From the NCBI GenBank assembly GCA_050789445.1, contig JAILXR010000001.1, positions 37,009 to 101,008 on the forward strand: DNA of 64,000 nt, in the 5' to 3' direction. A program made the translations under genes and the position numbers. The DNA is from Cellvibrionaceae bacterium. Lineage in GTDB: Bacteria > Pseudomonadota > Gammaproteobacteria > Pseudomonadales > Cellvibrionaceae. The notes beneath the pieces are model-generated. The model saw only the letters and a list, made by a program, of their open reading frames with translations. It made no database searches and had not been told where the DNA came from. Below, piece by piece: positions 20,166 to 47,530 of this stretch (positions within the stretch are counted from its first letter, which is position 1; every line of letters starts with the position of its first letter).

Positions 20166-20174
20166 GAGATCACT

Positions 20175-22959: not shown

Positions 22960-22989
22960 CTTTATTACATCTTTATTGGAGAAATCACT

Positions 22990-24733: not shown

Positions 24734-24763
24734 TATTTGAGAAGACTAATGTGAGAGCTTCTG

Positions 24764-25003
24764 CTAAATGCTAAGTAGTTGTTTGATCTCTTCAACTCGA
24801 TTTGTTAATTCTTGATTGAGATCTTTTGGCGTTAATTTAGAAATAATGTTTGCGATAACTCTCTTTTCATTGTCATCTACAACGCCATCTCTTAAGGCTA
24901 TACCTAAAAGCATGTCGAGTTCGTTTACATTTAACTTTCCGTCATCAGAAAAGCAATTTATTGATCGAAATGTCATTTCTAGGTAGTCTGTGTTTTCGCT
25001 CAT
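24764..25003 (-). CDS. small acidic protein, possibly TerB-like; last gene of the giant-ATPase operon
   Basis: 79 aa. The start is 11 nt after the stop of the upstream zinc-ribbon gene. Helical, with a DDGKLNVNELDMLLGIALRDGVVDDNEKRVIANI pattern reminiscent of TerB/DjlA-N domains. I recognise no definite family. Confidence 0.4.
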   Translation of the reverse strand: MSENTDYLEMTFRSINCFSDDGKLNVNELDMLLGIALRDGVVDDNEKRVIANIISKLTPKDLNQELTNRVEEIKQLLSI

Positions 25004-25013
25004 AGTGATTTCC

Positions 25014-25553: not shown

Positions 25554-25571
25554 TTTATTTCTCTTAAATGT

Positions 25572-30932: not shown

Positions 30933-31016
30933 TGTCTTTGTCCTTCCAGCAAATGAAGAGAATAAATGTGGGGTGAGGAGATGTAGATAACCTCACTCCG
31001 TATTTATTGAGATTGG

Positions 31017-32984: not shown

Positions 32985-33001
32985 AATGAACTCCTTTCTG
33001 T

Positions 33002-33691: not shown

Positions 33692-33737
33692 GTGTAGCTC
33701 CTTTTAATTGTTATTTTTCGTCAGCCGTTTTTTTAGG

Positions 33738-34433
33738 TTATTTTTCTGCCCGACTTTTTTTAATTCTTTCTAGTACATCGCTAGCTTTGTGCGTACTTGA
33801 TGTTATACCTGCTTCTTCAAGTTTGTTTTTTAAAGAACTATCGACGTTTTCTTCAGAAAGTTCATTGGCGACTTTCATCTGAGCATCTTTTAGAGTTTGT
33901 TTTTCTTTAAGCCGCTCTAGTGAATCCATTGCTGTTCTCAGTTTCGAGTTGGTTCCGCTATGTCTTTCGGCGACAGCTGCTTGTGCCCGCTGAACATTTT
34001 CTGTCGCTTTAACAGTGTCAACTTGTTGCTTAAGTCGCTTTATTGTTAATTCAGTTTGCCTAATGGTCTCGCGCAGTTTATTTACGTTTTCAGTAAAGCC
34101 ATCACGCAATTTTTTCTCATCATCTAACTGGTTTTCAAGATCTGCAATTTTAGTGGCGACCTCTAGGGCTAAAGCCTCATTGTCAGCCTCTAACGCTTTG
34201 ACAGCATATCCTTCATGTTCTTGGATTGCGGACTCAATTTTTTTAACTTTTTCTTCCGAAAGCTTTTGTCGAGCCATAATTGTGGCCAGTCCATCTTTTG
34301 ACTGTTTTAGTTCTTCACCAGCGTCTCGAACTTCTTGATCTAAAATTCGTAAAGCTTGTGTGTCGACGATAGCTTCACCAGCTTCATTTACACCACCTTT
34401 TAACGCGGTTATCATTTTTGCCCATACGTTCAT
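33738..34433 (-). CDS. PspA/IM30 (Vipp1, ESCRT-III-like) family protein, YjfJ-like
   Basis: 231 aa, all helical coiled-coil. The N-terminus MNVWAKMITALKGGVNEAGEAIVDTQALRILDQEVRDAGEEL and its length match the PspA/IM30 family. No pspBC or pspF neighbours are present. Confidence 0.8.
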   Translation of the reverse strand: MNVWAKMITALKGGVNEAGEAIVDTQALRILDQEVRDAGEELKQSKDGLATIMARQKLSEEKVKKIESAIQEHEGYAVKALEADNEALALEVATKIADLENQLDDEKKLRDGFTENVNKLRETIRQTELTIKRLKQQVDTVKATENVQRAQAAVAERHSGTNSKLRTAMDSLERLKEKQTLKDAQMKVANELSEENVDSSLKNKLEEAGITSSTHKASDVLERIKKSRAEK

Positions 34434-34443
34434 GTTTGTTCTC

Positions 34444-35070
34444 CTAAGCTTCTATTGCTATGTTAAGAAACTCGCTATATGCCTCTGTCGCTTGTATGAC
34501 ATTACTCGCTAAAGTTTCGATTTCGAAAATCACATTTGAAAGTGTCGATATGGAGCTAAGTGCGCCGAACATGTGATAGTAATCCTGTCCGTCTCCAATT
34601 GTGTCTAAGCTTATCGTTGAGAGAGGGAAATACTTATGTGTTCTCAGTATTGCTTTATTAAATCGATCAACGTCATTGACGGCAGTGACAGGCCATAAAA
34701 CAGATTCCGCAATTATCTGCTCACCAGAAACTGTCAAAAAAACTGGGAGGTCTCCATACTCGTGCATCATTATATGCAAAGCTGGTTCTACGCCGTCTAT
34801 AAGTTCGGCGGAAGACTGCCCGCTTTGGAGTAGATCTGACTCTAGGAGTTCTTTGTAAAGAGTTTCAGTCGTCCAAGCTTTATCGTTGCTAATCATACTT
34901 GCTCCTTTGTTTATTGTAAGGCCCCCGCGGGCTGTTCGAAGTTCTTTTTCCATAATGCTTAACGTTTTTGAGTTTTCAGGAAGAATCCATACCTCTTTTT
35001 TAATAAGGCCTTGTTCGCGAAGACGCTTTCGAAATTCTCTTTGGTAGTGTGCTGATGACTTTGGTTTCAT
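34444..35070 (-). CDS. hypothetical protein, first gene of the operon (basic N-terminus; possibly YjfI/DUF2170-like)
   Basis: 208 aa. It lies 10 nt upstream of the PspA-family gene. The N-terminus is basic (KSSAHYQREFRKRLREQGLIKK) and could be an RHH/DNA-binding segment. In E. coli the PspA paralogue yjfJ follows yjfI. Homology is not verifiable from sequence alone. Confidence 0.3.
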   Translation of the reverse strand: MKPKSSAHYQREFRKRLREQGLIKKEVWILPENSKTLSIMEKELRTARGGLTINKGASMISNDKAWTTETLYKELLESDLLQSGQSSAELIDGVEPALHIMMHEYGDLPVFLTVSGEQIIAESVLWPVTAVNDVDRFNKAILRTHKYFPLSTISLDTIGDGQDYYHMFGALSSISTLSNVIFEIETLASNVIQATEAYSEFLNIAIEA

Positions 35071-35087
35071 GGTGGAATAATCTAACT

Positions 35088-35121
35088 TGTTACATGTGAG
35101 ATGTCAATATGTTACATGTGA
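35088..35121 (-). promoter_or_regulatory. candidate operator: two direct copies of TGTTACATGTGA (core palindrome ACATGT) spaced 22 bp apart, 18-53 bp upstream of the operon's first start codon
   Basis: Copies at 35088-35099 and 35110-35121. Exact 12/12 repeat. The spacing is about two helical turns. It lies in the divergent intergenic region 35071-35407. Confidence 0.3.
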
Positions 35122-35407
35122 TGCTCCGGATTAGTTTATTGCAGTCGTATCTGATTGTTATAATTGATTTTTTTAGCTTTTCTCCGTTATTGTCGTGTTT
35201 TTTTGAGGTGGTTTGAGGAGTTTGGCGCCATTAATTTGCGCATGTTTGGGGTTGTTGACTGCATTTTGTTTCTTGGTCGCAATTATGCTGCAGGAATTCG
35301 AGCTTATCAGCGAATAGCCTTATGCTGTTATTGGCTGAGTAGAGCGGGTACTATGTCGACCGCATTTTATGAAGCATTAATTTTGTGACGAGTAGAAATC
35401 AATAGTT

Positions 35408-36367
35408 ATGTCTTATATGCATCGAGATGGAGTGAAGTTGTCTGCTGAAAGGATTGGTTATCGCTATAACGGCACTGTTAAAGCGGCTTTAAGTGATGTG
35501 TCAATTGTGTTTGAGTCGGGTTCTTGTTGTGGCATTTTGGGGCCAAATGGTGCGGGTAAGACCACTTTGCTATCGCTTCTGGTCGGCGTATTACCTATTC
35601 AGCGGGGAAGCTTATCGTTTGGAGGCGAGAAAAAAACGAATAAGGAAATTAAAAGTTCATCCGCTATTGTTCCTCAAGATTATGCCTTTTATCCCTCGTT
35701 AACTGGAAAAGAAAATCTCGATTTTTTTTCGGGTTTGTACGGTTTGTCTGGCGACAAAAAAAAGTCTCGCATTAATGACGTTGTCGATGTTTGTGGTTTG
35801 GCTGATGTTTTAGATAAGTACTCATCTCAGTATTCTGGTGGTATCAAGCGTCGTCTGAACTTGGCGATTGGTTTGTTGAGTGATCCTGACATTCTTTATC
35901 TTGACGAGCCGACTGTGGGGATTGATGCTCAATCACGCCGTTTTATTTTGTCCGCAATTAACAATTTGAAGGCGAAAGGTAAAACCATTGTTTATACGTC
36001 GCATTATATGGAAGAGATCGAGGCTATTTGCGACGACATTGTTATCATTGATCATGGCAAGTTACTGTTACAGAAAAAATTATCAGATATTTTGGGTGGA
36101 GAAAATGACAAGCTAGTCAAAGTTACATCTACTTTTCCTCCGAGTGTCGCCCAGATTGAAAAGCTTGGAACATTGTCAATTCGTCATATTTCTGGCTGTG
36201 AATTTTCTGCTTCAGCGAATCGTGCCAACTCTTCAGTTTTAGATTCTACGCAACAAATCTTCGATAGCTTTAATCAATGCGGTCTAGAGGTCGGTGCATT
36301 TAGCTATGGTGCTGACCGACTTGAAGATATTTATTTGTCTCTGACAAAAGAAAAGTTGAGAGATTAG
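35408..36367 (+). CDS. ABC transporter ATP-binding protein (ABC-2 exporter type)
   Basis: Walker A GPNGAGKTT, signature YSGGIKRRLNLAIGL, Walker B ILYLDEPTVGID. 319 aa. Confidence 0.85.
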   Translation: MSYMHRDGVKLSAERIGYRYNGTVKAALSDVSIVFESGSCCGILGPNGAGKTTLLSLLVGVLPIQRGSLSFGGEKKTNKEIKSSSAIVPQDYAFYPSLTGKENLDFFSGLYGLSGDKKKSRINDVVDVCGLADVLDKYSSQYSGGIKRRLNLAIGLLSDPDILYLDEPTVGIDAQSRRFILSAINNLKAKGKTIVYTSHYMEEIEAICDDIVIIDHGKLLLQKKLSDILGGENDKLVKVTSTFPPSVAQIEKLGTLSIRHISGCEFSASANRANSSVLDSTQQIFDSFNQCGLEVGAFSYGADRLEDIYLSLTKEKLRD

Positions 36368-37578
36368 TGAATATGAAATTATTTATTCAGCTGTCTTCTG
36401 TTTTCAAAAAAGAAATTTTATTGTTGGTGCGAGATCTTCATGGTTTGGTATTGTTATTTTTGATGCCTGCTGTTTTTATTGTGATTATGTCGCTGGCAAT
36501 GCAGCAAAATTTTTCGGCAAGAGATCAAGTGAAATTACCGGTTCTAGTCAGTGATCTTGCGGATAATGATGATTCTCGGGCACTGCTAAAAAATTTAGCC
36601 GATACGGAAGTTTTTGAATTCTTGTTTGCTGATGATATTTTTGAATTAAAAAGTAACGATGAACTTCTTGGTTATGTTCAAAAAGACAAAGCAGCTTTTC
36701 TTATAAAAATTTATACACTTCCAGAAGATGATGAAGAAACAAATACAATTGGTGTTGAATTACTGGTAGCTCCGGCAACATCTAAGCAGACCGAAATGAT
36801 ATTTGTGGCTGCACTTCGAGAGTCTTTGCGCGGTGTTAAAGTAGAAAAAATGCTTGACGATTTTGACGATGATACATTTGGTGATGAATCATTAGAAGAG
36901 TTGGCCGCTGTCGTGTTGGATGTAAATTATGCCTACGGCGGCGGTCAGGAATTATCTCCGTCGTCTGTTCAGCAAAATGTTCCTGCATGGCTAGTTTTTG
37001 CTATGTTTTTTGTGGTCGTGCCTCTTTCGAATACACTCATTAAAGAGCGCCAGTTGGGAACGCTGAAGCGATTGAAAACAATTCCAGTCTCTCCAGTGAT
37101 TTTGATTTTGGGCAAATTGCTCCCCTATTTTATTGTGATGCAGTTGCAAGTGGTTTGCATGATTGCTGTTGGGATTTTTGTTGTCCCAATGTTGGGAGGC
37201 GATCAACTGGAAATGGGGTCCTCTTTTACTGCGTTGGCTTTAATTTCTTTTGCATTGAGTTTGGCTGCGTTGGGGTATGCTTTTTTAATTGCAGTGATTA
37301 CTAAAACAACCGAGCAAGCAACTATGTTGGGTGGGGCAGGAAATATTATATTGGCCGCATTAGGTGGCATCATGATTCCTAAATTTGTTATGCCGATGTC
37401 GATGCAAAAAATCAGTGAATGGTCGCCGATGAATTGGGGGCTTGAAGGGTTTCTGGATGTGTTTTTGAGAAATGGAGACGCAACTCTCGTGTTATCAAAA
37501 GCGGCAATGCTAGGCGGCCTAGGTATATTTTTAATTGTGATTGCATCGCTTGTGATGGCAAAGCGAAATGAAGCTTAA
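36367..37578 (+). CDS. ABC-2 family transporter permease
   Basis: 403 aa. A ~180-aa extracytoplasmic N-terminal region is followed by 6 predicted TM helices typical of ABC-2 permeases. GTG 36367 overlaps the ATPase stop (TAGTG). Alternative ATG at 36373. Confidence 0.75.
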   Translation: MNMKLFIQLSSVFKKEILLLVRDLHGLVLLFLMPAVFIVIMSLAMQQNFSARDQVKLPVLVSDLADNDDSRALLKNLADTEVFEFLFADDIFELKSNDELLGYVQKDKAAFLIKIYTLPEDDEETNTIGVELLVAPATSKQTEMIFVAALRESLRGVKVEKMLDDFDDDTFGDESLEELAAVVLDVNYAYGGGQELSPSSVQQNVPAWLVFAMFFVVVPLSNTLIKERQLGTLKRLKTIPVSPVILILGKLLPYFIVMQLQVVCMIAVGIFVVPMLGGDQLEMGSSFTALALISFALSLAALGYAFLIAVITKTTEQATMLGGAGNIILAALGGIMIPKFVMPMSMQKISEWSPMNWGLEGFLDVFLRNGDATLVLSKAAMLGGLGIFLIVIASLVMAKRNEA

Positions 37579-37650
37579 TCGTTGTATATAGAACACATAA
37601 AGTGTTTGAACGAAACAAAAAAGAAAATCGAAATAAATTGGAAGTTCGAA

Positions 37651-37923
37651 ATGAATAAAAATCAGTTAATTGCAGAGCTCAAAAAAATGATCATTGAAGA
37701 ATGTGATAAAGATATTGAGCCAGAAGAGATTAAAGATGATGAGCAGTTAATTGGTGGTGGTGATTTGGATTTGGATTCTCTGGATGCATTGCAAATATCA
37801 ATGTCTGTTCAAAAAAAGTACGGTGTTAGAATTGAAAATGGACCCGATGCAAAAAAAGCGTTGCGCACTGTAGATTCTTTAGCTGAAAAGATTTTAGCTG
37901 ATCTACCTGAAAATAAATCATAG
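37651..37923 (+). CDS. acyl carrier protein
   Basis: 90 aa from ATG 37651 (the track ORF starts earlier at 37582). The phosphopantetheine-attachment motif is GGDLDLDSLDALQISMSVQKKYG, a DSLD-type serine. Confidence 0.7.
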   Translation: MNKNQLIAELKKMIIEECDKDIEPEEIKDDEQLIGGGDLDLDSLDALQISMSVQKKYGVRIENGPDAKKALRTVDSLAEKILADLPENKS

Positions 37924-37939
37924 GTGTAAGGAAGGATCC

Positions 37940-39220
37940 ATGAAGCCTATTCATATTATCGGTACGGGACTGCATACCGCGTTAGGTTCGAGTACAGCTG
38001 AATGTGTCACTGCTTTGCGTGAACATGGCGTTACTAAAAAGCCTAGCGCTAGCGTAGCTTCTTTAAGCTGTACCTTGCCAAACAATGAAATAACAATTCC
38101 TTATTATCTTCTTGCAAAAACGCCTACTCGCGATGTACACGTTCGGTTCAATGATGTTTTGTTTGATGTTGTTTCTCAAGCCATAAGCGAAGCTGGTCTA
38201 TCAGAGTCAGCATTAAATAATATAGGCTTGTTTGTTGGGTCATCATCATTTGAAATAGCTGATGAAGAGGAGCGATTTAAAAAAACGCTGTGTGAGAAAG
38301 ATGCTTTCCCGCTTGCCGAGTGCGGTATGGGGAATCTATCAGAGCGTGTAAGAAAGCATTTTAATATTAGCGGCCCTGACTTTACGTTTAATACGGCCTG
38401 CACCTCTAGCGCAAATGCAATGCTGTATGCGGGGCAATTAATTGATCAAGGTGTGATTGAAAATGCTCTGGTTGTTGCTGTTGAGTTTTCAAATGACACA
38501 ACAACGTATGGTTTTTATGGCTTGCAGTTGCTGAGTCAAAATGCGTTGTTGCCGTTTGATGATAGGCGTGATGGTTTAATACTTGGTGAAAGTTGTGCGG
38601 CTGCTATTTTATCTGGTCCCGATTCGAGTAGTAGCGAATGGCATGATCAAAATCTACAGGACAAAAGCCTTCCAGAAAAAAACGTTCTGAGAAAAAACAA
38701 AGCAAAGATCAGATTATTAGGCGGCGCAAATTTATGTGATACGCATAGCATGTCTATTACTCATGAAGATGGTGACGTTGTAGCGCAAGTGATTTCTTCA
38801 GCGCTTAAAAATGCGGGAGTTTCTTCAAGGGATATATCTGTAATCAAGTGTCATGGAACAGCGACAATGGGTGGGGATGCCGCAGAAGCTAATGGTATGA
38901 GGCGTGCTTTTGAGTCAGTTGAAAAATTTCCGCAGTGCTGTGCCATCAAGCCGTTTATAGGTCACACGCTTGGTGCCTGCGGTTTGTCGGAATTTATTTT
39001 ATTTTGTGGTGCCGTTCAGCAAGGTTTTATTCCAACCTCAAAAGGGATTGCAGAAAAGGGAAATGAATTGGGTATTGTTTTGAATCAGGAATTAACCCTA
39101 GAGAAAGGCGAAAAAATAAATCAGCCTATTTTGGGTAGGTATTTATTAAATTATTTTGGTTTTGGTGGGAATAATACCAGCCTTGTTGCCGATATAGTGG
39201 ATGGTGATAATCGTGGTTAA
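37940..39220 (+). CDS. beta-ketoacyl-ACP synthase (KAS I/II-like ketosynthase)
   Basis: 426 aa. The active-site Cys is in NTACTSSANAM. The catalytic His residues are in KCHGTATMGGDAAE and GHTLGACG. Confidence 0.85.
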   Translation: MKPIHIIGTGLHTALGSSTAECVTALREHGVTKKPSASVASLSCTLPNNEITIPYYLLAKTPTRDVHVRFNDVLFDVVSQAISEAGLSESALNNIGLFVGSSSFEIADEEERFKKTLCEKDAFPLAECGMGNLSERVRKHFNISGPDFTFNTACTSSANAMLYAGQLIDQGVIENALVVAVEFSNDTTTYGFYGLQLLSQNALLPFDDRRDGLILGESCAAAILSGPDSSSSEWHDQNLQDKSLPEKNVLRKNKAKIRLLGGANLCDTHSMSITHEDGDVVAQVISSALKNAGVSSRDISVIKCHGTATMGGDAAEANGMRRAFESVEKFPQCCAIKPFIGHTLGACGLSEFILFCGAVQQGFIPTSKGIAEKGNELGIVLNQELTLEKGEKINQPILGRYLLNYFGFGGNNTSLVADIVDGDNRG

Positions 39221-40196
39221 TCTTTTAAAAAGCCAAAGCGAAAACCAAAATGAAAAGTCTGGTGCTCCGAAAGTAGAGGGCGTGAAACTTCAGATTCTTT
39301 CAATGGGGCAATACATAGAAAAGGTTGATGAGAGTAGTGATAATCCACTACCTGAATTAAAAACACTGGTAAAAGAATCGACAGGAAAAGCAATTCGAAG
39401 AATTACTCGTTTTGTCCAATTGGCATTGATCGGCGCAAGTCGTTGCTGCAAAGATATTGAAATTGATAAAAGTGCGAGTGTGTATTTTGCTTCTTGCCGG
39501 GGCGATACCGGTGTAACGGTTGATTTGTTGAATGGTTTAGTTCGAGATCAGCAACCTCCAGCACCTTTGTCGTTTGTTAATTCAGTGAGTAATGCAGCTT
39601 GTTTTCAGGTAGCAAAGTCCGTTGATGTTTTTGGTGGAAGTAATTTTATTACGAATCGATATGACCCAATTTTTGCGGCATTACAGTTGGCTCAATCTGA
39701 TTTTATACTAGGGTCAGCATCGTCGGCGTTGATCGGTAGCGTTGATTGTTGTTCTTTGCCGCTTGATGAGCACCGAAGAAGAGTTGATTTGAGTACGAAT
39801 CAGGGGTTAGTTGAAGCGAGTAACTGGCTTTTAATTGCGAGCTTGTCAGCGGAACAGGAAAGCGCTCAGAATCAAACCTCAATTGGCGTCATCGAAGATC
39901 TTCGATATTTTTCAAATTTGGAATTACTAATCAATTGGCTAAAAACAAAAGATTTTTTAGCGGATATTGTATTAGGTATTGGTCAGCATCTTCCTGAGGG
40001 GGATGTACAGTCCATCATGAAGGAGGGGAGTATTGATTCTCGCTTTGATTATGTTGGTCGTGACGGTCACTACGATAGCCCAACAGGCGAGGGGATTATT
40101 CGTTTTTTAAAAGAGCATACAGCGACCATGATGTTGCATGTTAATTCTGATCCCTCAGGTCGCTTTACGGTTTTTATGGTCTGCCGAAACCGCTAA
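39201..40196 (+). CDS. ketosynthase-like protein lacking the active-site Cys (chain-length-factor / KS-beta-like partner)
   Basis: 331 aa. It overlaps the KS gene by 20 nt. The thiolase-like region VNSVSNAACFQVAKS has N/A at the position of the KS nucleophilic Cys. No His-His pair is present. The start may be downstream (Met at 39300). Confidence 0.5.
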   Translation: MVIIVVNLLKSQSENQNEKSGAPKVEGVKLQILSMGQYIEKVDESSDNPLPELKTLVKESTGKAIRRITRFVQLALIGASRCCKDIEIDKSASVYFASCRGDTGVTVDLLNGLVRDQQPPAPLSFVNSVSNAACFQVAKSVDVFGGSNFITNRYDPIFAALQLAQSDFILGSASSALIGSVDCCSLPLDEHRRRVDLSTNQGLVEASNWLLIASLSAEQESAQNQTSIGVIEDLRYFSNLELLINWLKTKDFLADIVLGIGQHLPEGDVQSIMKEGSIDSRFDYVGRDGHYDSPTGEGIIRFLKEHTATMMLHVNSDPSGRFTVFMVCRNR

Positions 40197-40208
40197 TCCA
40201 ACATGTTT

Positions 40209-41231
40209 TTACCACATCTTTTTCAGTAAGTTCCACACCTCTAATTCTTTATCGGCGCACTTGTTGATAATGTTGTTGAGCTCTGTTGCATCCATGGGTT
40301 TTCGTTTGCGAGACATTTTACTGGCTTGTAGAGCAAAGTTACGCCATTGATCTCCAGCATCTGTCATTTTTTCTGATGCTTCTATTAATAGATCATGATG
40401 AGTATATTGTGCGGCCTCTCGTAAAAATGCAGCATAAATAAATCGAAAGCCGGCGCCGCCAGTTCCTATTTCTTCTTGCATTCTAACAATGTGGCTTAGG
40501 TAAAGCGGTAAATATTCTTCTCTTTTCTTGGGATTCTTTTCGAGTTTGATTAGGTTTTTACCTAGATAGCGAATTCCCCGTACACCGACAATAGGGATTG
40601 GTGCTTTCGCCATAATTTTATAGTTTGATTTTATCGCTTTAGGAATAACAGTAGCGTAATCAATTTCTGAAGGAATGTGTTCTGGGTAATACATCAAACC
40701 TTTTGCTGCCATAGCTCCTTTTGCAAAGCGCGCTTTTTTTAAGCCTTCTTTTTCACAGGTTTGTGAAGTTTCAAAAACGGGGTCGCTGACAAAATAATTT
40801 TTTTCATCTTTGCCGTACACTAATAAATTGTGAGCGTTGAAGTGAAAGCGCATTTCTTGTGGAAAATAAGGGAGCCAGTAAACACTGGTTTGCAATCCAA
40901 CTAATTTTTCTTGTTCTATGAGCCTATCTAATTCTGCCATGCCCTCATCGGGGTTCCGAAAAGTTTGGAAGTGCATTTTTAAGCCAATGCGTTTTTGTAA
41001 TCCTTTAATAATCCATTTTGGGGGCATGCGATAAGCTATGAGTGGCATGCCGGATAATTTTACAAAAGGAATGTAGGCAAATGTCAGTGCGTTTGATAAA
41101 CCAAAAGCCATGGGTTCTGTCATCGGCAAGCCATAATGCGTCAACATGGATGAGATGACACCGCTCTCACAGTGAGCCGATTGCTTATGGTTGAAATGAT
41201 TGTTTTTAGGAGTCTGGGTTTGTGAGTTCAT
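40209..41231 (-). CDS. BtrH_N/DUF4872-like protein (putative ACP-dependent acyltransferase, papain-like fold)
   Basis: 340 aa with an N-terminal HCESGVISSMLTHYG putative Cys nucleophile. Length and layout are consistent with BtrH-like proteins. The assignment is by pattern recall, not by search. Confidence 0.45.
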   Translation of the reverse strand: MNSQTQTPKNNHFNHKQSAHCESGVISSMLTHYGLPMTEPMAFGLSNALTFAYIPFVKLSGMPLIAYRMPPKWIIKGLQKRIGLKMHFQTFRNPDEGMAELDRLIEQEKLVGLQTSVYWLPYFPQEMRFHFNAHNLLVYGKDEKNYFVSDPVFETSQTCEKEGLKKARFAKGAMAAKGLMYYPEHIPSEIDYATVIPKAIKSNYKIMAKAPIPIVGVRGIRYLGKNLIKLEKNPKKREEYLPLYLSHIVRMQEEIGTGGAGFRFIYAAFLREAAQYTHHDLLIEASEKMTDAGDQWRNFALQASKMSRKRKPMDATELNNIINKCADKELEVWNLLKKMW

Positions 41232-41335
41232 GTTTGTTTATCAGTATTGTTAGGAGGTTTGAACTTGGCTGTGTATTCGCAGCTATGCTTTCCCCGGCAC
41301 TTTAATCGCTAGCTTTTGGGTGTTTTGAATAGTTT

Positions 41336-41749
41336 TTAACTAGCAGAAAATTCATCCGGCAAAGTGTTGAGATCTTCTTTCGATAGGCCTAGCGCATCGC
41401 AATATTTATCGATGTTTTTTTGAGAGAGTTTTTTGAACGAGTCAGGTTTAAAATGCCTACGAATACGCCATTGAAAAAAGCCAGTTGCTTGCGAAAGGAG
41501 AGCAAGATCCATTCGGCAATTAAACATATGGAACTCAAGCGGCGCTGAAATGCCGTCTCTACCGCGTTGCCATGCAGCTTGCCTGTCGGCATTGATGACA
41601 TTGATCGCGTCTTGAGTTGCTTCGCCTTCTACATCCCATCCAGTCGATTGTACGCCGGTGTATTCGCCATCATTCTCGACAGCGTAAAATAATTTTTGGT
41701 GACCGGCGTAGGTCGAAATGTTGTCTTGCGGGACTTCGTCTTTTTTCAT
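41336..41749 (-). CDS. hypothetical protein (137 aa) within the resorcinol-type cluster
   Basis: Clean ORF between the BtrH-like gene and darB, on the same strand. No recognisable motif. Confidence 0.5.
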   Translation of the reverse strand: MKKDEVPQDNISTYAGHQKLFYAVENDGEYTGVQSTGWDVEGEATQDAINVINADRQAAWQRGRDGISAPLEFHMFNCRMDLALLSQATGFFQWRIRRHFKPDSFKKLSQKNIDKYCDALGLSKEDLNTLPDEFSAS

Positions 41750-41791
41750 TTGAATAAATCCATTTTAATTGACGATTTTTATAGTGAGAAG

Positions 41792-42943
41792 TTAAGCGAC
41801 GGTCAAACTCATCATAGCTGAAGAAAAGCGACCGCTTTCAGGAATGTAACATAGCAATCGTTGGCCTGATTGTAATTTTCCTGAGTTGTAGAGCTCTTCT
41901 AGCATGATATAAATAGATGCAGAGCCAGTATTGCCTTTTTCTGGGAGATTGGTAAACCACTTCTCTTTTGGAATATCTAGGCCCACTCGCTGAATGCTTT
42001 CTTGTACCCCTTTAGCGAAAAAATTCGATGAATAGTGAGGAATAAAATAATCGAATTGATCAGCCGTTAAATTGTAGCGCGCTATTAGGTCAGTTAAGGG
42101 TTTTTCGACAGTGTAATGCAAAACATTTTCATTCAATAATTTCACATCTTGCTTAACAGAAAGTACTGATTGCTCATTACGCTCGTTACTGTTGAAGTTT
42201 TGCCAGCCTGTCATCGTGCCATCTTCATTTTTAACCGCGCCAGCGTACATGCAAGTTTCCATTTCTCCGGCATAAGAATAAAGGTGCAGCCAGTCTACTC
42301 GAAGAGATAGGCGATCAGGAGCAGGTTGGGGTTGAAGCAACATGGCGCCCGCGCCATCAGATAACATCCAGCGCAAAAAATCTTTTTCGAACGCGAGTTC
42401 AGGCTGAGTTTCTAATTGGTTTAATTTTGCTTCTGTTTCAGCAGCAAAATTATTCGCCGTCATCACACCTGAAGACAGTTCTGATCCAGTGGCGATTGCA
42501 TTTTTATATTCGCCACTCAAAATTCCTAGATAAGCATATTTAAAAGCCGTCATTCCCGCTAAGCAAACACCGCTTGTCGCAACAACTTCGCAAGGGTGTA
42601 ATCCCAGCTCGCCTTGAACCATCACCGCATGATTTGGCATTAACTGATCGGCAATAGATGTTCCGCTAGCGAGGCAATCAATGTCGTCAAGTTGAATGGT
42701 ATCTTTGGTGACATTTTTTATTGCCTCAGCTGTGAGCTGTGCATTCGAGTAGTTGTGCTTTAGTGTTTTAGGATCGATGGCATAGTAACGTTGTTTAATG
42801 CCGTTGCTTCGCAGAATAGTTCTACGCGCTCTAGAGGGGCGAACGCCTACTTGTCCCAAAAGCGATTCCATGTCGTTGTTGTCGACGGGATCGTTGGGTA
42901 GAAAAGCTCCAATGTTTGTAATATAAACTGCGTTGTCTGGCAT
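41792..42943 (-). CDS. darB: FabH-like ketosynthase (KAS III family), DarB-type condensing enzyme
   Basis: 383 aa KAS III fold. The active-site Cys is in ATSGVCLAGMTAF. It lies immediately downstream of a DarA-like gene, as in dialkylresorcinol/cyclohexanedione darAB loci. Confidence 0.7.
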   Translation of the reverse strand: MPDNAVYITNIGAFLPNDPVDNNDMESLLGQVGVRPSRARRTILRSNGIKQRYYAIDPKTLKHNYSNAQLTAEAIKNVTKDTIQLDDIDCLASGTSIADQLMPNHAVMVQGELGLHPCEVVATSGVCLAGMTAFKYAYLGILSGEYKNAIATGSELSSGVMTANNFAAETEAKLNQLETQPELAFEKDFLRWMLSDGAGAMLLQPQPAPDRLSLRVDWLHLYSYAGEMETCMYAGAVKNEDGTMTGWQNFNSNERNEQSVLSVKQDVKLLNENVLHYTVEKPLTDLIARYNLTADQFDYFIPHYSSNFFAKGVQESIQRVGLDIPKEKWFTNLPEKGNTGSASIYIMLEELYNSGKLQSGQRLLCYIPESGRFSSAMMSLTVA

Positions 42944-42981
42944 AACTGCTTTTTAAATCCTGGTAAGTTAGAACTTGTAAG

Positions 42982-43929
42982 TTAAATCCTGTGCGTCTCT
43001 TCACCCGAGGGTGCTGCAAAATACGCTTTTTGTTCGGCCGTTCTTTTTTTTAATAATGGCGAAAATAGTCTTTTCAAAATCGCAGAAATCGGAACGACGG
43101 TTAAAATCATTGTGATTAAAAATAAAATATAAAAAACGAGCACAAATTTTCGGATGACCGATTGCTGATTGCCAAGACTACGTAATAGTTTGCCCCAAAT
43201 CTCAAAACTTCGGCGTGCAATTTTTTCAGATGCAATTAATCTTTCGTTAACTTCAACAGCGCCTAATCCTTTCAGTGTCGGCTCTGTTATTTTTGATGAT
43301 GTTTTTTCTAATTCTTCTTTTATCGCTACGCCGAATCGTCTTGAGTCGACTATATCTCTTTCGCTTACGCCAGCTCTCGGTATTAATCCATCAAGCCAAG
43401 GCCCTTTGTTACCAGTGAGTACCCAGAGCGGAGTAGCGATAAATGTAGCCGCGCTATGCGCTTCATCAGTCAATACAATATTGTCGATGAGTGTTGCTGA
43501 CAGATTTTTTAATTTTTCTTTAACTATTTCTTGCGCCGTTATCCACATGTTGCGGCAGCCAATAACGGTGATGACTGGAGTATCTTTAAAAATATGTTTG
43601 GCTTCTTCTGAATTTAAAAAAGTGCTAATAGGTCGAGAGGGTGAAAGGAACCATACTTGGTAAGATAAAATGATCAGGTCAAACTTTTCATCTGAAATTG
43701 CTAGAGGTTTTAGTTCTATATTTTCTTCGTAAACTGTCTCGGGAAAATTATTGAAAAACGATAAAAAAGGCCAAGGAAATGGAAATGCGATTACAGGCTC
43801 GATGCTTTTGTAAACAACATCAATATCACTGGCGTCTTTGAGTGGAGCAATAATGGAATTCACTATGCGAGTTAGTTGCCCAGTTTGGGAGTAGCCCAAT
43901 ACGAGCACGCGTTTTTTCATTTCTTGCAT
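42982..43929 (-). CDS. darA: dialkylresorcinol-condensing-enzyme-like protein DarA (flavodoxin-like)
   Basis: 315 aa. The N-terminus is KKRVLVLGYSQTGQLTRIV, a flavodoxin-like fold. The C-terminus has a hydrophobic helix. It matches my memory of DarA family proteins that pair with FabH-like DarB. Confidence 0.6.
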   Translation of the reverse strand: MQEMKKRVLVLGYSQTGQLTRIVNSIIAPLKDASDIDVVYKSIEPVIAFPFPWPFLSFFNNFPETVYEENIELKPLAISDEKFDLIILSYQVWFLSPSRPISTFLNSEEAKHIFKDTPVITVIGCRNMWITAQEIVKEKLKNLSATLIDNIVLTDEAHSAATFIATPLWVLTGNKGPWLDGLIPRAGVSERDIVDSRRFGVAIKEELEKTSSKITEPTLKGLGAVEVNERLIASEKIARRSFEIWGKLLRSLGNQQSVIRKFVLVFYILFLITMILTVVPISAILKRLFSPLLKKRTAEQKAYFAAPSGEETHRI

Positions 43930-44188
43930 GTTTCCGTCATTGTCTCGTCATGGGGTGGTCGTCACTTTTGCGCGCTGTTATCAGTAGCGAACTGCGTGTT
44001 ACGAATTTAGGGCCAAAGTGGCTGTTTGTTTAGTCTGTAGGCGACCCCGATTATGTACCAAATTGATCGAGGCTGCAGGAAAAACAGCTGTGGATTATGC
44101 CATAAGCGGGCGTGACCACTCTAGTAGTGACGGATAAAGTTCGTGTCTTTAGGTAAATCAATGCATATTCATTAACTGTAGGGAATAA

Positions 44189-47100
44189 TTACCAGGTGTC
44201 GACAAAGCTATTTGTCCTGAAATTACTATCCTGTGAGGTTTTATTGTTTTGAAGTGAGCTTTGGGTAGTCGCTTCTAATCCTCTCGCAATCCAGAGGCGA
44301 GTATCTTTGGGATCAATGACGTCATCTAAGTCAAAGTAGGAGGCAACATTGGTAGCTTTGCCGAGTTCATACATTGCAACCACTTTTTCTTGGTAGAAAG
44401 TTTCTCGCTCTTCAAGGTCATTAATAGCGGCTATTTCATTTCTGTAGCCCAGTTTAACGGCGCCTTCTAATCCCATTCCTCCAAATTCGCCAGTAGGCCA
44501 TGAGACGGTAAAGAATGGTGCTTTAAAGCTTCCTCCTGCCATTGTCTGAGCGCCAAGGCCGTATGCTTTACGAAGGATGATCGAAAAGAAAGGGACTTTA
44601 AGGGAGGCGCCAGCAATAAATAATCTTGCGGCATGTCGAACGAGTGCCGTTTTTTCTGCTTCGGGTCCCACCATGATTCCCGGCGTATCGCATAGGAACG
44701 TTACTGGAATATTGAAGGCATTGCAGAGTTGTAAAAAACGGGCCGCTTTGTCTGAACCAGGGCTGTCGATGGCACCGCCTAAATGAGCGGGGTTGTTTGC
44801 GACGATACCGACAGCTTTGCCTTCAATGCGAACAAAGGATGTCACTATTCCTGGTGCAAAGCCTTTTCGTAATTCTAAAACTGAGTCTGTATCGGCAAGT
44901 AATTCAATGACATTGCGAACATCATAAACTCGTAGGCGGTTTTCTGGGATGACAGTTCTTAATAAATACTGATCAGGGCATTCCCATTTCGTGAGATCAC
45001 CTTGAAAGTAACTTAAATATTTTTGTGCGGCAAAGACGGCTTCTTGTTCGTCCTTGACGGCTATATCAATCACACCATTGGGAATGTGGTCGCTAACCGG
45101 TCCGACTTCTTCTGGTTTGAAAACACCTAGGCCGCCACCTTCAATCATGGCGGGGCCGCCCATGCCAATGTTGGCATTTTCGGTAGCAATAATCACATCA
45201 GAGCAGCCGAGTAAAACGGCATTGCCCGCAAAGCATCGCCCGCTAACAATCCCGACTAGAGGGCAAGAGCCTTTGAGTTTTGCGTAGTCCCAAAAAGCTA
45301 AGCAGTCTAAACCACTGGCGCTGTTTCTTTCTGTTTCACCCGGACGGCCACCGCCTCCTTCTGCAAAAATAACAACGGGTAATCGCCATTGTTCCGCGAG
45401 CTCAAATAGACGATCTTTTTTTCGATGGTTTTTTTGCCCTTGGGTGCCCGCGAATACGGTGTAATCGTAAGACATGACAACGCATTGAGATTTTTCTTTT
45501 GAGAATAATTCTGCGTTGACTGTGCCCATTCCGCCGACTAATCCGTCAGCAGGTGTTTTTTCCATGAGCTCTTCTAGGGAGCGGCGGGCACGTTGCGCGG
45601 CAATAACCAGCGATCCATATTCAATAAAACTTCCTTCGTCGCAGAGGTGGTTAATATTTTCTCGAGTAGTTCTTTGCCCTGTTTTTCGGCGTCTTGCGAC
45701 CGCTTCTGGTCTGTTTTCATCAAGCCCGTAGCGGTGACGATCGATAACTTCTTGTAAGTCAGGGCGAATTTTATGTGGGTCTTGTACTTCGGTTTCGATA
45801 TTTTTAACATTTTGATCTTCAGAGGGGGTGATTGAAAGTAAAGGCGTGTTTTCAAAAAGAGTTTCACCGGCATTGGTTGCGATTTGAGTGATTTTCCCAC
45901 TAATTTTTGCAGTAATAACGTGTTCCATTTTCATGGACTCTATTATTAATAGCTCATCTCCTTTGTTGATGCTGTCATTAACCTTCACTTGAAGGCTAAC
46001 AATGGTTCCTTGAAGGGGAGATGAGACAACATGTTCGTCATCTGAAAATACTGAAGAGTTTTTCTGTGAAATATTTTTACTGGGATCGCTTTTTGATGTT
46101 GTTGGCGATGAGCTAATTGATTCTTTTTCACGAAACTTTTGCTCTTGTGTGACGAGATTGGCAACATTGTCGTCAATCCAGCGAGTATAAATATTCCAGT
46201 CTTTGACATCTTCTGTGTTCAAAATAGTCTGCAAAAACTGGGAGTTTGTTTTCACTCCTGACGTTTTAGAGTCACTTAAAGCTTTTGATGTTTTCTTTAA
46301 AAGGCTCTCCCATGAGTTGGATATATTTCTCGAAGAGCAAATAATTTTCGTGATTAGTGAGTCAAAGTTTGGATTGGTGGTGTAGCCGCTATATCCGAAT
46401 GTGTCTACGCGAACTCCTGGGCCTGTGGGAACAATAAAATGTTCTATTGTTCCCCCCTGTGGTTTTATATCGCCGTTTGCATCAATGGTTTCCATGTTGA
46501 TGCGTGCTTGAATGGCTTGCCCTTGAATTAATGGTGGGGTTTCTAAGTGAATTTCTTTCAGCGTTTTATTCGCTGCAATTTCTAATTGTATGTTGATCAA
46601 ATCTATGTGAGTGATTTCTTCGGTGATGGTATGTTCGACTTGCAGGCGAGGATTGGCTTCAATAAAGAAAAAGTTGTTGGATTCTACATCAACTAAAAAT
46701 TCGAAGGTGCCTATGTTGTTATACCCTGATTTTTTTGCCATCAATACAGCCGCTTCGAGAATGCTTTCTCTTGTCGAATCATTTAGATTGGGGCTGGGAG
46801 CAACTTCAATAATTTTTTGATGGCGGCGTTGAATACTGCAATCTCTATCCCATGCATGAATTACATTGCCATGATTGTCGGCTATTATTTGGATTTCAAT
46901 GTGGCGCGCTTTTTCGATTAAAGCTTCGACATACACTTGTGCATTTCCAAAAGCGTTAAACGCTTCTGACTGGCATCGCTCAAAAGCTGATTCAATGTCA
47001 GACTCTTGATGAACTATGCGCATTCCTCTGCCGCCGCCGCCAGCAATGGCTTTTATCAGCATTGCGGCTTTTGTTTTTTTGTTGAGTAGCTGAAAAAACT

Positions 47101-47530
47101 CTTTTGCTTCCGAAAGGCTAGTTTCAGTTTGGGTGCCGGGTAAAACCGGAATGTTATGTTTCTGCGCAAATTGTCTTGCAGAAATTTTATCGCCAAATAA
47201 CGCAAGCTGTTGGTGTGTCGGCCCAACAAAAGTAATGCCGTTATCCGTGCACTTTTTTGCAAAATCAGCGTTTTCACTCAAGAATCCGTATCCGGGGTGG
47301 ATGGCGTCACATTTGTTTTCCTGTGCAATAGTTAGTATCTGTTGTGAGTCGAGGTAGGCGCTAGCTCCTTTGCCTTTAAGCGGTATAGCTTCATCTGCGT
47401 ATTGGTGATGAAGTGAGTTGTGATCGTCTTCAGAATAGATGGCGAGGGTTGAAATATTCATTTCTGCTGCAGTGCGACAAATTCGAATAGCAATTTCACC
47501 GCGATTGGCGATAAGTAGTTTTTTGAGCAT
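44189..47530 (-). CDS. multidomain biotin-dependent acyl-CoA carboxylase (biotin carboxylase + BCCP + carboxyltransferase in one 1,113-aa polypeptide)
   Basis: N-terminal biotin carboxylase (MLKKLLIANRGEIAIRICRTA...). Biotinyl domain with ELLIIESMKMEHVITA, an (A/S)MKM biotin-lysine motif. C-terminal ~520 aa are AccD/PccB-like carboxyltransferase with its conserved Gly-rich CoA/oxyanion motifs (FAEGGGGRPGET, FAGTQGQ). Confidence 0.85.
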   Translation of the reverse strand: MLKKLLIANRGEIAIRICRTAAEMNISTLAIYSEDDHNSLHHQYADEAIPLKGKGASAYLDSQQILTIAQENKCDAIHPGYGFLSENADFAKKCTDNGITFVGPTHQQLALFGDKISARQFAQKHNIPVLPGTQTETSLSEAKEFFQLLNKKTKAAMLIKAIAGGGGRGMRIVHQESDIESAFERCQSEAFNAFGNAQVYVEALIEKARHIEIQIIADNHGNVIHAWDRDCSIQRRHQKIIEVAPSPNLNDSTRESILEAAVLMAKKSGYNNIGTFEFLVDVESNNFFFIEANPRLQVEHTITEEITHIDLINIQLEIAANKTLKEIHLETPPLIQGQAIQARINMETIDANGDIKPQGGTIEHFIVPTGPGVRVDTFGYSGYTTNPNFDSLITKIICSSRNISNSWESLLKKTSKALSDSKTSGVKTNSQFLQTILNTEDVKDWNIYTRWIDDNVANLVTQEQKFREKESISSSPTTSKSDPSKNISQKNSSVFSDDEHVVSSPLQGTIVSLQVKVNDSINKGDELLIIESMKMEHVITAKISGKITQIATNAGETLFENTPLLSITPSEDQNVKNIETEVQDPHKIRPDLQEVIDRHRYGLDENRPEAVARRRKTGQRTTRENINHLCDEGSFIEYGSLVIAAQRARRSLEELMEKTPADGLVGGMGTVNAELFSKEKSQCVVMSYDYTVFAGTQGQKNHRKKDRLFELAEQWRLPVVIFAEGGGGRPGETERNSASGLDCLAFWDYAKLKGSCPLVGIVSGRCFAGNAVLLGCSDVIIATENANIGMGGPAMIEGGGLGVFKPEEVGPVSDHIPNGVIDIAVKDEQEAVFAAQKYLSYFQGDLTKWECPDQYLLRTVIPENRLRVYDVRNVIELLADTDSVLELRKGFAPGIVTSFVRIEGKAVGIVANNPAHLGGAIDSPGSDKAARFLQLCNAFNIPVTFLCDTPGIMVGPEAEKTALVRHAARLFIAGASLKVPFFSIILRKAYGLGAQTMAGGSFKAPFFTVSWPTGEFGGMGLEGAVKLGYRNEIAAINDLEERETFYQEKVVAMYELGKATNVASYFDLDDVIDPKDTRLWIARGLEATTQSSLQNNKTSQDSNFRTNSFVDTW

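What the first reader, a model, noticed from the sequence alone, without database searches (positions are those of the whole stretch)
35408..47530. Dialkylresorcinol/cyclohexanedione-type biosynthetic gene cluster with its own ACP-KS-CLF trio, exporter and carboxylase
Two converging transcription units form a ~12-kb cluster. The (+) unit is an ABC-2 ATPase, a permease, an ACP, a KS and a Cys-less KS partner. The (-) unit is a fused acyl-CoA carboxylase, a DarA-like gene, a DarB-like (FabH-type) gene, a 137-aa unknown and a BtrH-like protein. DarAB-type condensation of two fatty-acyl thioesters gives dialkylresorcinols, which serve as antimicrobials, signalling molecules and flexirubin building blocks. 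The cluster has a type-II-PKS-like KS/CLF/ACP set but no obvious ketoreductase or dehydratase. That points to an unusual acyl precursor or product.
Basis: partly seen in the sequence, partly recalled or inferred. Interest (0 to 1): 0.6.

Follow-up and report, generated by a model that had tools for sequence, protein, structure and literature searches.

The report
Ordinary extended dialkylresorcinol (dar) gene cluster
This is a standard nine-gene bacterial cluster for making dialkylresorcinol lipids, of a type described in 2014 and found in hundreds of species; the carboxylase gene beside it is a neighbour only in a few close relatives.

Summary
The ten ORFs exist exactly as described (35408-47530). 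The DarA/DarB assignment holds. DarB matches the StlD/DarB model above cut-off and the solved StlD structure over its full length. DarA is 100% identical to a protein annotated 'dialkylresorcinol condensing enzyme' in a Cellvibrionaceae MAG.

The '137-aa unknown' and the BtrH-like protein match the curated NCBIfam models DarG_fam and DarH. The ABC ATPase, permease, ACP, KS and Cys-less CLF-like partner, converging on darA-darB-darG-darH, are the same gene set published for Azoarcus BH72 (darA-K). That layout recurs in most of 80 genome loci from Pseudomonas, Caulobacter, Marinobacter, Zhongshania and others. The absence of KR/DH is therefore normal for this cluster type and does not signal unusual chemistry.

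[quoted passage not shown] It lies next to darA only here and in two close relatives (DarA 91% and 83% identical). It is absent from 80/80 other dar loci, and 80/80 LCC loci elsewhere lack dar genes. A conserved promoter-like motif lies between LCC and darA.

Small new points: DarG is predicted to carry a Cro/C1-type helix-turn-helix fold, and DarA has a C-terminal hydrophobic segment.

Verdict: a new member of a known kind, of low interest.

The parts
35408..36367 (+). ABC transporter ATP-binding subunit (DrrA/ABC-2 type), equivalent to Azoarcus darF
   Evidence: PF00005 scores 92 bits and TIGR01188 drrA-like 210 bits, below its cut-off. A homologue sits in the same position in 57/80 dar loci.
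36367..37578 (+). ABC-2 family permease, equivalent to Azoarcus darI
   Evidence: PF12698 and PF01061 hits. Its start overlaps the ATPase stop by 1 nt. Detected in 38/80 loci by tblastn and present in the gene calls of L081, L082 and L163-165.
37582..37923 (+). Acyl carrier protein (DarC-type); the probable true start is the ATG at 37651 (90 aa)
   Evidence: PF00550 scores 24.1 against a cut-off of 20.8. The DSLD motif places Ser66 as the attachment site. ACP-sized genes of 88-106 aa occupy the same position in relatives.
37940..39220 (+). Beta-ketoacyl synthase (FabF/type II KS class), equivalent to Azoarcus darJ
   Evidence: PF00109 and PF02801 hits. Best NCBIfam model is PRK09185 at 195 bits against a cut-off of 407; the cispentacin AmcF model gives 137 bits. 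Motifs TAC(154), H305GT and GH342T are present. Found in 63/80 loci.
39201..40196 (+). Cys-less KS partner (chain-length-factor-like), equivalent to Azoarcus darK
   Evidence: PF13723 scores 24.6 against a cut-off of 25. The 100% identical NCBI protein is named 'beta-ketoacyl synthase chain length factor'. The AF2 model has pLDDT 87.8. Best PDB matches are the CLF chains 6kxf_B and 6smp_F. The family alignment has no invariant Cys. A weak hhalign alignment puts Tyr154 opposite the KS Cys154.
40209..41231 (-). DarH, a BtrH-related acyltransferase (Azoarcus darE)
   Evidence: NF053550 DarH_acyl scores 494.7 against a cut-off of 300. BtrH_N and DUF4872 domains are present. Found in 73/80 loci. 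No solved relative by sequence.
41336..41749 (-). DarG-family protein (Azoarcus darD) with a predicted C-terminal Cro/C1-type HTH fold
41792..42943 (-). DarB, a StlD/DarB-family condensing/cyclising ketosynthase
   Evidence: NF005293 scores 599.8 against a cut-off of 450; the narrower resorcinol_DarB model scores 504 against 550. It matches StlD (PDB 5gk0) with 471 bits over residues 4-382. Motifs place C127, H303 and N338. Found in 79/80 loci.
42982..43929 (-). DarA, the putative aromatase ('dialkylresorcinol condensing enzyme')
   Evidence: No Pfam or NCBIfam model matches. There are 3564 homologues, many named dialkylresorcinol condensing enzyme, and a 100% identical Cellvibrionaceae MAG protein. 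It is always followed by darB. A hydrophobic segment spans residues 263-281.
44094..44102 (-). TGGCATAAT, an extended -10-like motif upstream of darA
   Evidence: The motif is present upstream of darA in L081 and L082 and, as GGCATAAT (TGGCATAAT in 36), in 37/80 other dar loci. In Ectopseudomonas oleovorans it lies about 30 nt before the darA ATG, with an AGGGA Shine-Dalgarno-like stretch between them. Its function as a promoter is inferred.
44189..47530 (-). Single-chain BC-BCCP-CT acyl-CoA carboxylase of the LCC family; a neighbour, probably not a core cluster member
   Evidence: It matches PDB 4rcn, long-chain acyl-CoA carboxylase, with 1062 bits over residues 3-1083. The MKM biotinylation motif places K534.

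Best explanation
The locus is a typical 'extended dar' biosynthetic cluster of a marine Cellvibrionaceae gammaproteobacterium. It consists of nine genes in two convergent operons.

Established for the family:
- DarB (StlD-type ketosynthase) joins a beta-ketoacyl thioester and an alpha,beta-unsaturated acyl thioester by Michael addition plus Claisen cyclisation. The product is a carboxy-cyclohexanedione/cyclohexanedione.
- DarA aromatises this to a 2,5-dialkylresorcinol.

Inferred here:
- The KS/CLF-like pair performs a non-reductive elongation on the dedicated ACP. This delivers the beta-ketoacyl-ACP that DarB needs, which explains why no KR/DH is present.
- The ABC-2 transporter moves the lipid product out of the cytoplasmic membrane.
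- DarH, a BtrH-type ACP-dependent acyltransferase, transfers an acyl group. The most likely reaction is esterification of the resorcinol to another ACP-bound acid, such as an aryl-polyene, as in arcuflavin/flexirubin.
- DarG is a small helix-turn-helix-fold protein, either a pathway regulator or an accessory subunit.
- The adjacent LCC-type carboxylase is an independently inherited neighbour gained in a narrow lineage. It is probably transcribed separately and is not a defining component.
For: Family assignments:
- DarB: NF005293 scores 599.8 against a cut-off of 450, and it matches StlD (5gk0) with 471 bits over its full length.
- DarA: 100% identical to a protein named 'dialkylresorcinol condensing enzyme', with 3564 homologues.
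- DarG_fam and DarH_acyl are both above cut-off.
- The ACP has a DSL serine, and the KS has Cys-His-His motifs.
- The partner has a CLF-like fold and no conserved Cys.

Conservation:
- The gene set is identical to the Azoarcus BH72 darA-K cluster (PMC3949708 Table 1). Per that paper, heterologously expressed Azoarcus DAR-biosynthesis proteins gave a DAR in E. coli.
- The convergent layout is conserved in 80 loci: DarA 80, DarB 79, DarG 74, DarH 73, KS 63, ABC ATPase 57.
- Gene calls of five closer relatives show the same layout.

Mechanism of DarB/DarA: PMC6836626 section 3.2.3.

LCC is not core:
- 0/80 dar loci have it.
- It is absent at the syntenic alr-birA-coaX-tuf site in A. infirmus and in L164 and L165.
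- None of 80 LCC-homologue loci carries dar genes. Their commonest neighbour is an AMP-binding acyl-CoA synthetase.
- The conserved TGGCATAAT motif lies between LCC and darA.
Against: - No product was observed, and whether it is a free DAR, a CHD or an esterified pigment is unknown.
- No aryl-polyene genes lie in the 64-kb window, so the proposed DarH acceptor/donor is speculative.
- The roles of KS/CLF, DarG and DarH rest on homology and gene context only. I found no paper that tests them.
- DarB scores below the narrow NCBIfam resorcinol_DarB cut-off (504 against 550), and DarG below the flexirubin_DarG equivalog.
- LCC is on the same strand directly upstream of darA in three related genomes, and no terminator-like hairpin was found between them. 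Read-through and functional coupling in this lineage therefore cannot be excluded.
- The promoter scan overall was at chance level.
Confidence: 0.8

Rival explanations
1. The LCC carboxylase is a working part of the cluster in this lineage. It would either boost malonyl-CoA for the KS/CLF/ACP module or make 2-alkylmalonyl-CoA extender units that alter the resorcinol substitution pattern.
For: - LCC is on the same strand, 259 bp upstream of darA, and the adjacency is kept in three related genomes.
- No terminator-like site lies between them.
- The LCC family accepts C2-C16 acyl-CoAs (PMC6491548).
- The KS/CLF module needs a malonyl-type extender (inference).
Against: - LCC is absent from 80/80 other dar loci and from three closer Cellvibrionaceae-type loci, one of them at the same chromosomal site.
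- 80/80 LCC-homologue loci have no dar genes and instead sit mostly behind an acyl-CoA synthetase.
- A conserved promoter-like motif for darA lies downstream of LCC.
- The three genomes that share the adjacency are close relatives, so it may reflect a single event.
Confidence: 0.15
2. The KS/CLF/ACP trio is a minimal type II PKS that builds a poly-beta-keto or otherwise unusual chain. The product would then not be a fatty-acid-derived dialkylresorcinol.
For: - No KR/DH/ER domain occurs in the ten proteins.
- The partner's best structural matches are CLFs of type II PKSs.
- The KS falls below the cut-off of every curated KS model.
Against: - The same KR/DH-less set occurs in Azoarcus BH72, whose product contains an ordinary DAR (PMC3949708).
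- The set is the majority architecture in 80 loci.
- DarB is close to StlD, which uses fatty-acyl-type substrates.
- No cyclase, aromatase or tailoring genes of aromatic type II PKS pathways are present.
Confidence: 0.08
3. DarG is not a biosynthetic enzyme. It is an Xre-type transcription factor embedded in the operon that controls dar expression, possibly through the conserved TGTGGCATAATC element.
For: - There is a weak HTH_26 hit.
- W94, R98 and H99 are invariant in the predicted third helix of the HTH fold.
- A conserved motif lies upstream of darA in 37/80 loci.
Against: - HTH-like domains also occur in enzymes among the hits (HppE, HEPD, cyanase).
- The motif reads naturally as an extended -10 box and is missing from many loci that have DarG.
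- The N-terminal third carries many invariant residues but is modelled with low confidence.
- NCBIfam labels the family 'biosynthesis protein'.
Confidence: 0.3

Closest known systems
Azoarcus sp. BH72 dar cluster (darA, B, D, E, F, I, C, J, K; azo0283-0293), the DAR part of arcuflavin biosynthesis (PMC3949708)
   Same: The gene set is the same: DarA, DarB, a conserved hypothetical (here DarG family), a BtrH-like protein (here DarH), ABC ATPase, ABC permease, ACP, KS, and a hypothetical KS partner (searches compared).
   Different: - Azoarcus carries a toxin-antitoxin pair inserted among the ABC genes, and xanthomonadin-like arc genes lie about 20 genes away.
- The window has no polyene genes within 64 kb and has an LCC carboxylase next to darA.
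- The gene names differ: NCBIfam DarG/DarH correspond to Azoarcus darD/darE.
Minimal darABC of Pseudomonas aurantiaca/chlororaphis and stlCDE of Photorhabdus (StlD structure 5gk0)
   Same: DarB is a full-length homologue of StlD (471 bits). It shares the DarA partner and a dedicated ACP. The chemistry (beta-keto plus enoyl thioesters giving a CHD and then a resorcinol) is described in PMC6836626.
   Different: The minimal clusters lack the KS/CLF pair, DarG, DarH and the ABC-2 exporter. The window's DarB scores below the narrow resorcinol_DarB model (504 against 550).
Flexirubin clusters of Bacteroidota (darA/darB plus polyene genes; PMC3992019)
   Same: They share the DarA/DarB core and members of the DarG and DarH families (the NCBIfam models flexirubin_DarG and DarH_acyl).
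   Different: The window's DarG fails the flexirubin_DarG equivalog cut-off (126 against 170). No TAL/4CL, KR, DH, LolA or glycosyltransferase genes are nearby. The host is a gammaproteobacterium.
[quoted passage not shown] 2015, as cited in PMC6491548)
   Same: It has the same BC-BCCP-CT order on one polypeptide of about 1100 aa. The alignment is full-length at 1062 bits, and the MKM biotinylation motif is present.
   Different: The substrate range of this protein is untested. Its position beside a dar cluster is not seen for other family members.
KS/CLF heterodimers of polyene-type or single-elongation type II systems (ishigamide Iga11/12, 6kxf; AntDE, 6smp; cispentacin AmcF/AmcG)
   Same: The partner model's best matches are the CLF chains of 6kxf and 6smp. 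The KS and ACP give weak hits to the cispentacin AmcF and AmcB models.
   Different: All scores are well below family cut-offs. Sequence identity to the CLF structures is 12-14%. No KR/DH accompanies the pair here.

Membership tests
DarAB-type dialkylresorcinol/cyclohexanedione cluster | A StlD/DarB-family condensing ketosynthase | tested here: met
   NF005293 scores 599.8 against a cut-off of 450. It matches StlD 5gk0 with 471 bits over residues 4-382. Motifs place C127, H303 and N338.
DarAB-type dialkylresorcinol/cyclohexanedione cluster | Passes the narrow NCBIfam 'resorcinol_DarB' exception model | tested here: not met
   The score is 504.3 against a cut-off of 550. It is therefore filed at StlD/DarB family level only.
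DarAB-type dialkylresorcinol/cyclohexanedione cluster | A DarA (aromatase) gene adjacent to darB | tested here: met
   The 315-aa protein directly upstream of darB is 100% identical to a protein named 'dialkylresorcinol condensing enzyme' and has 3564 homologues. DarA-DarB adjacency holds in 79/80 loci. No curated HMM exists in Pfam or NCBIfam, so this rests on homology to source-named proteins.
DarAB-type dialkylresorcinol/cyclohexanedione cluster | Production of a 2,5-dialkylresorcinol or cyclohexanedione | not testable with these tools
   This requires expression and LC-MS.
Extended dar cluster (Azoarcus darA-K type) | DarG-family and DarH (BtrH-related) genes following darB | tested here: met
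   DarG_fam scores 165 against 70 and DarH_acyl 494.7 against 300. The order darA-darB-darG-darH holds in 73-74/80 loci.
Extended dar cluster (Azoarcus darA-K type) | A convergent ABC ATPase-permease-ACP-KS-KS partner operon | tested here: met
   Searches show it here. The same orientation and order occur in 57-63/80 loci and in L081, L082 and L163-165. It matches PMC3949708 Table 1.
Flexirubin / aryl-polyene-DAR pigment cluster | Polyene genes (ammonia-lyase or XanB2, CoA ligase, KR, DH, LolA, glycosyltransferase) in or next to the locus | tested here: not met
   None occurs among the ORFs of the 64-kb window that were scanned. The rest of the genome could not be searched.
Flexirubin / aryl-polyene-DAR pigment cluster | The flexirubin_DarG equivalog | tested here: not met
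   The score is 126 against a cut-off of 170.
Type II PKS KS/CLF/ACP set | A KS with the Cys-His-His triad | tested here: inconclusive
   PF00109 and PF02801 are above cut-off, and the motifs TAC154, H305GT and GH342T are present. However, every curated NCBIfam KS model is below cut-off; the best is PRK09185 at 195 against 407.
Type II PKS KS/CLF/ACP set | A partner with the KS fold that lacks the catalytic Cys | tested here: met
   The AF2 model has pLDDT 87.8. Its top PDB matches are the CLF chains 6kxf_B and 6smp_F. There is no invariant Cys in 37 homologues. hhalign aligns Tyr154 with the KS Cys154, but weakly (E 0.0055).
[quoted passage not shown] | BC-BCCP-CT on one chain, homologous over its full length to the solved LCC | tested here: met
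   One search gives the domain order. One search gives 4rcn at 1062 bits over residues 3-1083. The MKM motif is present.
[quoted passage not shown] | Preference for long-chain acyl-CoA substrates | not testable with these tools
   This requires an enzyme assay. The family property is cited from PMC6491548.

The most novel reading that the evidence does not exclude
In this narrow Cellvibrionaceae lineage, the newly acquired LCC carboxylase has been recruited to the dar pathway. It would feed 2-alkylmalonyl (or extra malonyl) units to the KS/CLF/ACP module, so that the product is a differently substituted resorcinol. In addition, DarG would be a Cro/C1-type regulator, making the locus a self-contained unit for lipid synthesis and control.
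Probability: 0.1. Interest if true: 0.5.

Novelty: new member of a known kind. Interest (0 to 1): 0.2.

Why it matters
It matters little as a discovery. The cluster type was described in 2014, curated models recognise three of its proteins, and two short DarA peptide patterns alone found it in at least 584 places among species-representative genomes.

Its value is as a clean, compact example. It shows the nine-gene core, separates that core from an accidental neighbour, and points to three untested roles in a very widespread pathway:
- the KS/CLF pair as supplier of the beta-ketoacyl substrate;
- DarH as the acyltransferase;
- DarG as an HTH-fold protein.

Tried and rejected
- Promoter and terminator consensus scans over 35-48 kb gave counts at chance level (27 against 26.3; 15 against 13.4). 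They were not used to define operons.
- A profile comparison of the single KS sequence with the partner alignment gave nothing (Prob 0.2%), and a plain pairwise alignment was meaningless. Only a family-versus-family hhalign gave a weak but structurally sensible alignment.
- My own by-eye alignment of partner 'NSVSNAA' to the KS 'TACTSS' motif was dropped because it disagrees with that alignment and with the predicted strand-helix positions.
- DarH has no solved relative by sequence.
- DarA and the KS partner match no NCBIfam model even at E<=10.
- PADLOC and NCBIfam found nothing for the DUF3686 block.
- P0002 (DarA 91%) could not be located by exact look-up. Its contig was reached through the CLF protein instead.
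- The afdb50 fold library was unavailable.
- Literature searches found no experimental work on the DarG/DarH/KS-CLF functions.
- A reading of TGGCATAATC as a sigma-54 site was considered and rejected, because the GG/GC spacing does not fit (by inspection).


Full report
**Observation.**
- The + unit runs 35408-40196. It encodes an ABC ATPase, an ABC-2 permease, an ACP, a KS and a KS partner, with overlapping or nearly abutting genes.
- The - unit runs 47530-40209. It encodes a fused carboxylase, a DarA-like gene, a DarB-like gene, a 137-aa protein and a BtrH-like protein.
- The two units converge with a 12-bp gap.
- Pfam and NCBIfam confirm every domain assignment and show no KR/SDR or dehydratase domain in any of the ten proteins.

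**Source organism.** The DarA-like protein is 100% identical to a protein on a 3.68-Mb contig of a Cellvibrionaceae MAG. The flanks are housekeeping genes: alr, birA, coaX, a SPOR-domain gene, tRNAs and tuf on one side, and a formamidase/ABC operon and an rRNA operon further away on the other.

**DarA and DarB.**
- DarB scores 599.8 on the StlD/DarB family model (cut-off 450). It aligns over its full length (residues 4-382, 471 bits) with the solved Photorhabdus ketosynthase StlD. The Cys127/His303/Asn338 motifs are present.
- DarB falls short of the narrower 'resorcinol_DarB' model (504 against 550), so I file it at family level.
- DarA has no curated HMM. It has 3564 homologues, many named 'dialkylresorcinol condensing enzyme', and it precedes darB in 79 of 80 fetched loci.

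**The remaining genes match a known cluster type.**
- The '137-aa unknown' is a member of the curated DarG family (165 against a cut-off of 70). The BtrH-like protein is DarH (494.7 against 300).
- Table 1 of Schöner et al. 2014 (PMC3949708) lists the Azoarcus BH72 dar cluster as darA, darB, darD (conserved hypothetical), darE (BtrH-like), darF (ABC ATPase), darI (permease), darC (ACP), darJ (ketosynthase) and darK (hypothetical). This is the same nine functions.

**Conservation of the layout.**
- The counts were DarA 80, DarB 79, DarG 74, DarH 73, KS 63, ABC ATPase 57, permease 38 and KS partner 32. The ACP is too short for the threshold used.
- The arrangement was almost always the same convergent one.
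- The genera include Pseudomonas and its relatives, Marinobacter, Zhongshania, Caulobacter, Hirschia and Gilvimarinus, plus Acidobacteriota MAGs.
- Gene calls for five closer relatives show the full nine-gene layout, including an 88-106-aa ACP.
- The KR/DH-less ACP-KS-partner set is thus the normal form of this cluster, not an oddity.

**The KS partner.**
- NCBI names the identical protein 'beta-ketoacyl synthase chain length factor'.
- An AlphaFold model built on 37 homologues is confident (pLDDT 87.8).
- Its best PDB matches are the CLF chains of the ishigamide KS/CLF (6kxf_B) and of AntDE (6smp_F).
- The family alignment has no invariant cysteine.
- A family-versus-family hhalign alignment is weak (E 0.0055). 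It is nevertheless consistent with the predicted strand-turn-helix and puts Tyr154 opposite the KS catalytic Cys154.
- The KS itself keeps the Cys154/His305/His342 motifs, but it is below the cut-off of every curated KS model (best PRK09185, 195 against 407).

**DarG.**
- A model built on 50 homologues has pLDDT 82.9 overall and above 90 for about residues 50-130.
- Pfam gives a weak HTH_26 hit (E 0.02, residues 80-132).
- W94, R98 and H99 are invariant and lie in the predicted third helix.
- I found no paper reporting this fold for DarG. Whether the protein binds DNA is open.

**The carboxylase.**
- It is a single-chain BC-BCCP-CT enzyme that aligns over its full length (1062 bits) with PDB 4rcn, the long-chain acyl-CoA carboxylase. 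It has the MKM biotinylation motif.

**Is the carboxylase part of the cluster? The evidence says not generally.**
- It is adjacent to darA in the window, in a MAG with 91% DarA identity (L163) and in an assembly with 83% identity (L081).
- Aurantivibrio infirmus (65%) has the dar cluster at the same chromosomal site (tuf-SPOR-coaX-birA-alr | darA...) without it.
- Two further relatives (69% and 67%) have a radical-SAM gene there instead.
- None of the other 80 dar loci has it within 10 kb.
- Conversely, none of 80 metagenomic loci carrying LCC homologues (45-61% identity) has any dar gene. Their commonest neighbour, in 24 loci, is an AMP-binding acyl-CoA synthetase, in most of them upstream on the same strand.
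- The 259-bp LCC-darA spacer contains TGGCATAAT at 44094-44102 on the minus strand. The same element (consensus CTGTGGCATAATC) lies upstream of darA in L081, in LCC-less L082 and in 37 of the 80 loci.
- In Ectopseudomonas oleovorans the element sits about 30 nt before the ATG with a Shine-Dalgarno-like AGGGA between them. It therefore reads as an extended -10 promoter (inference).
- The dar operon thus appears to have its own promoter downstream of LCC.
- Against full independence, no terminator-like hairpin was detected after LCC, and the generic scans were at chance level.

**Mechanism.**
- Established for the family (PMC6836626 section 3.2.3): DarB condenses a beta-ketoacyl and an alpha,beta-unsaturated acyl thioester to a carboxy-CHD/CHD, and DarA is the putative aromatase giving the 2,5-dialkylresorcinol.
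- Inferred here: the KS/CLF pair and the ACP carry out a non-reductive elongation that yields 3-oxoacyl-ACP, which is what DarB requires. From memory, the single-elongation KS/CLF-like AmcF/AmcG of cispentacin biosynthesis is a precedent. The KS and ACP give weak hits to those models.
- DarH is inferred from its family to transfer an ACP-bound acyl group. BtrH is an ACP-dependent acyltransferase in butirosin biosynthesis (from memory). In Azoarcus the free DAR was not detectable, and the DAR occurs as part of the aryl-polyene hybrid arcuflavin, so esterification is the most likely job. No polyene genes lie in this window, so this step is speculative here.
- The ABC-2 pair probably exports the lipid.
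- DarA has a C-terminal hydrophobic segment (residues 263-281), which suggests membrane association.

**Novelty and score.**
- The cluster type, its gene set and its core chemistry are published, and three of its proteins match curated models. This is a new member of a known kind.
- The LCC adjacency is a lineage-restricted variant without evidence of function.
- The untested roles of KS/CLF, DarH and DarG are modest open questions for a very widespread pathway.
- Interest 0.2.

Noticed in passing
window 24750-35400 (ORFs 25014-25553, 25572-30932, 31017-32984, 33002-33691, 33738-34433, 34444-35070, all on the - strand): A six-gene block of about 10.6 kb lies directly beside the dar cluster. 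It encodes a 1786-aa DUF3686+DUF7902+AAA ATPase protein, 655-aa, 229-aa and 179-aa proteins that matched no family in the libraries each was scanned against, a PspA/IM30 protein and a DUF2170 protein. The block is absent from the otherwise collinear relative L081 and present in L163. The large proteins have no PADLOC or NCBIfam hit. It looks like an inserted island of unknown function.
   Followed up: partly
window 44094-44102 (-); L001-L080 upstream of darA: The conserved element CTGTGGCATAATC (an extended -10-like TGnCATAAT) lies upstream of darA in 37 of 80 loci from several genera: about 25-45 nt before the start in most of them, about 140-155 nt in three, and about 165 nt in the window. 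It could be a promoter or an operator, possibly for the HTH-fold DarG.
   Followed up: partly
L083-L162 (metagenomic LCC homologues): Single-chain LCC-type carboxylases elsewhere often have an AMP-binding acyl-CoA synthetase as neighbour (24 loci, mostly upstream on the same strand). In 16 loci they are followed by a conserved protein of about 617 aa that I read, from its sequence only, as an AcoR/sigma-54-type activator. This suggests a catabolic acid-activation/carboxylation module.
   Followed up: partly
window 42982-43929 (-), DarA residues 263-281: DarA has a strongly hydrophobic C-terminal segment (VLVFYILFLITMILTVVPI, mean Kyte-Doolittle score 2.8). This suggests that the putative aromatase is membrane-anchored.
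   Followed up: no
window 37582-37923 (+) and 39201-40196 (+): The mechanical ORF starts are probably too far upstream. The ACP likely begins at the ATG at 37651 (90 aa, as in relatives). The NCBI version of the KS partner is 327 aa, 4 residues shorter.
   Followed up: partly
window 17802-24733 (+): This is a formamidase operon: a Peripla_BP_5 binding protein, two permeases, two ABC ATPases, formamidase FmdA (781 bits) and an FmdB-type zinc-ribbon 'RPWMISH' protein. In L081 its FmdA and zinc-ribbon end directly abuts the dar ABC ATPase gene.
   Followed up: no
window 1401-3495 (+): A thiolase gene (1401-2582) and an SDR gene (2710-3495) lie about 32 kb from the dar cluster. They are too far away and too ordinary to count as the 'missing' KR.
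   Followed up: no
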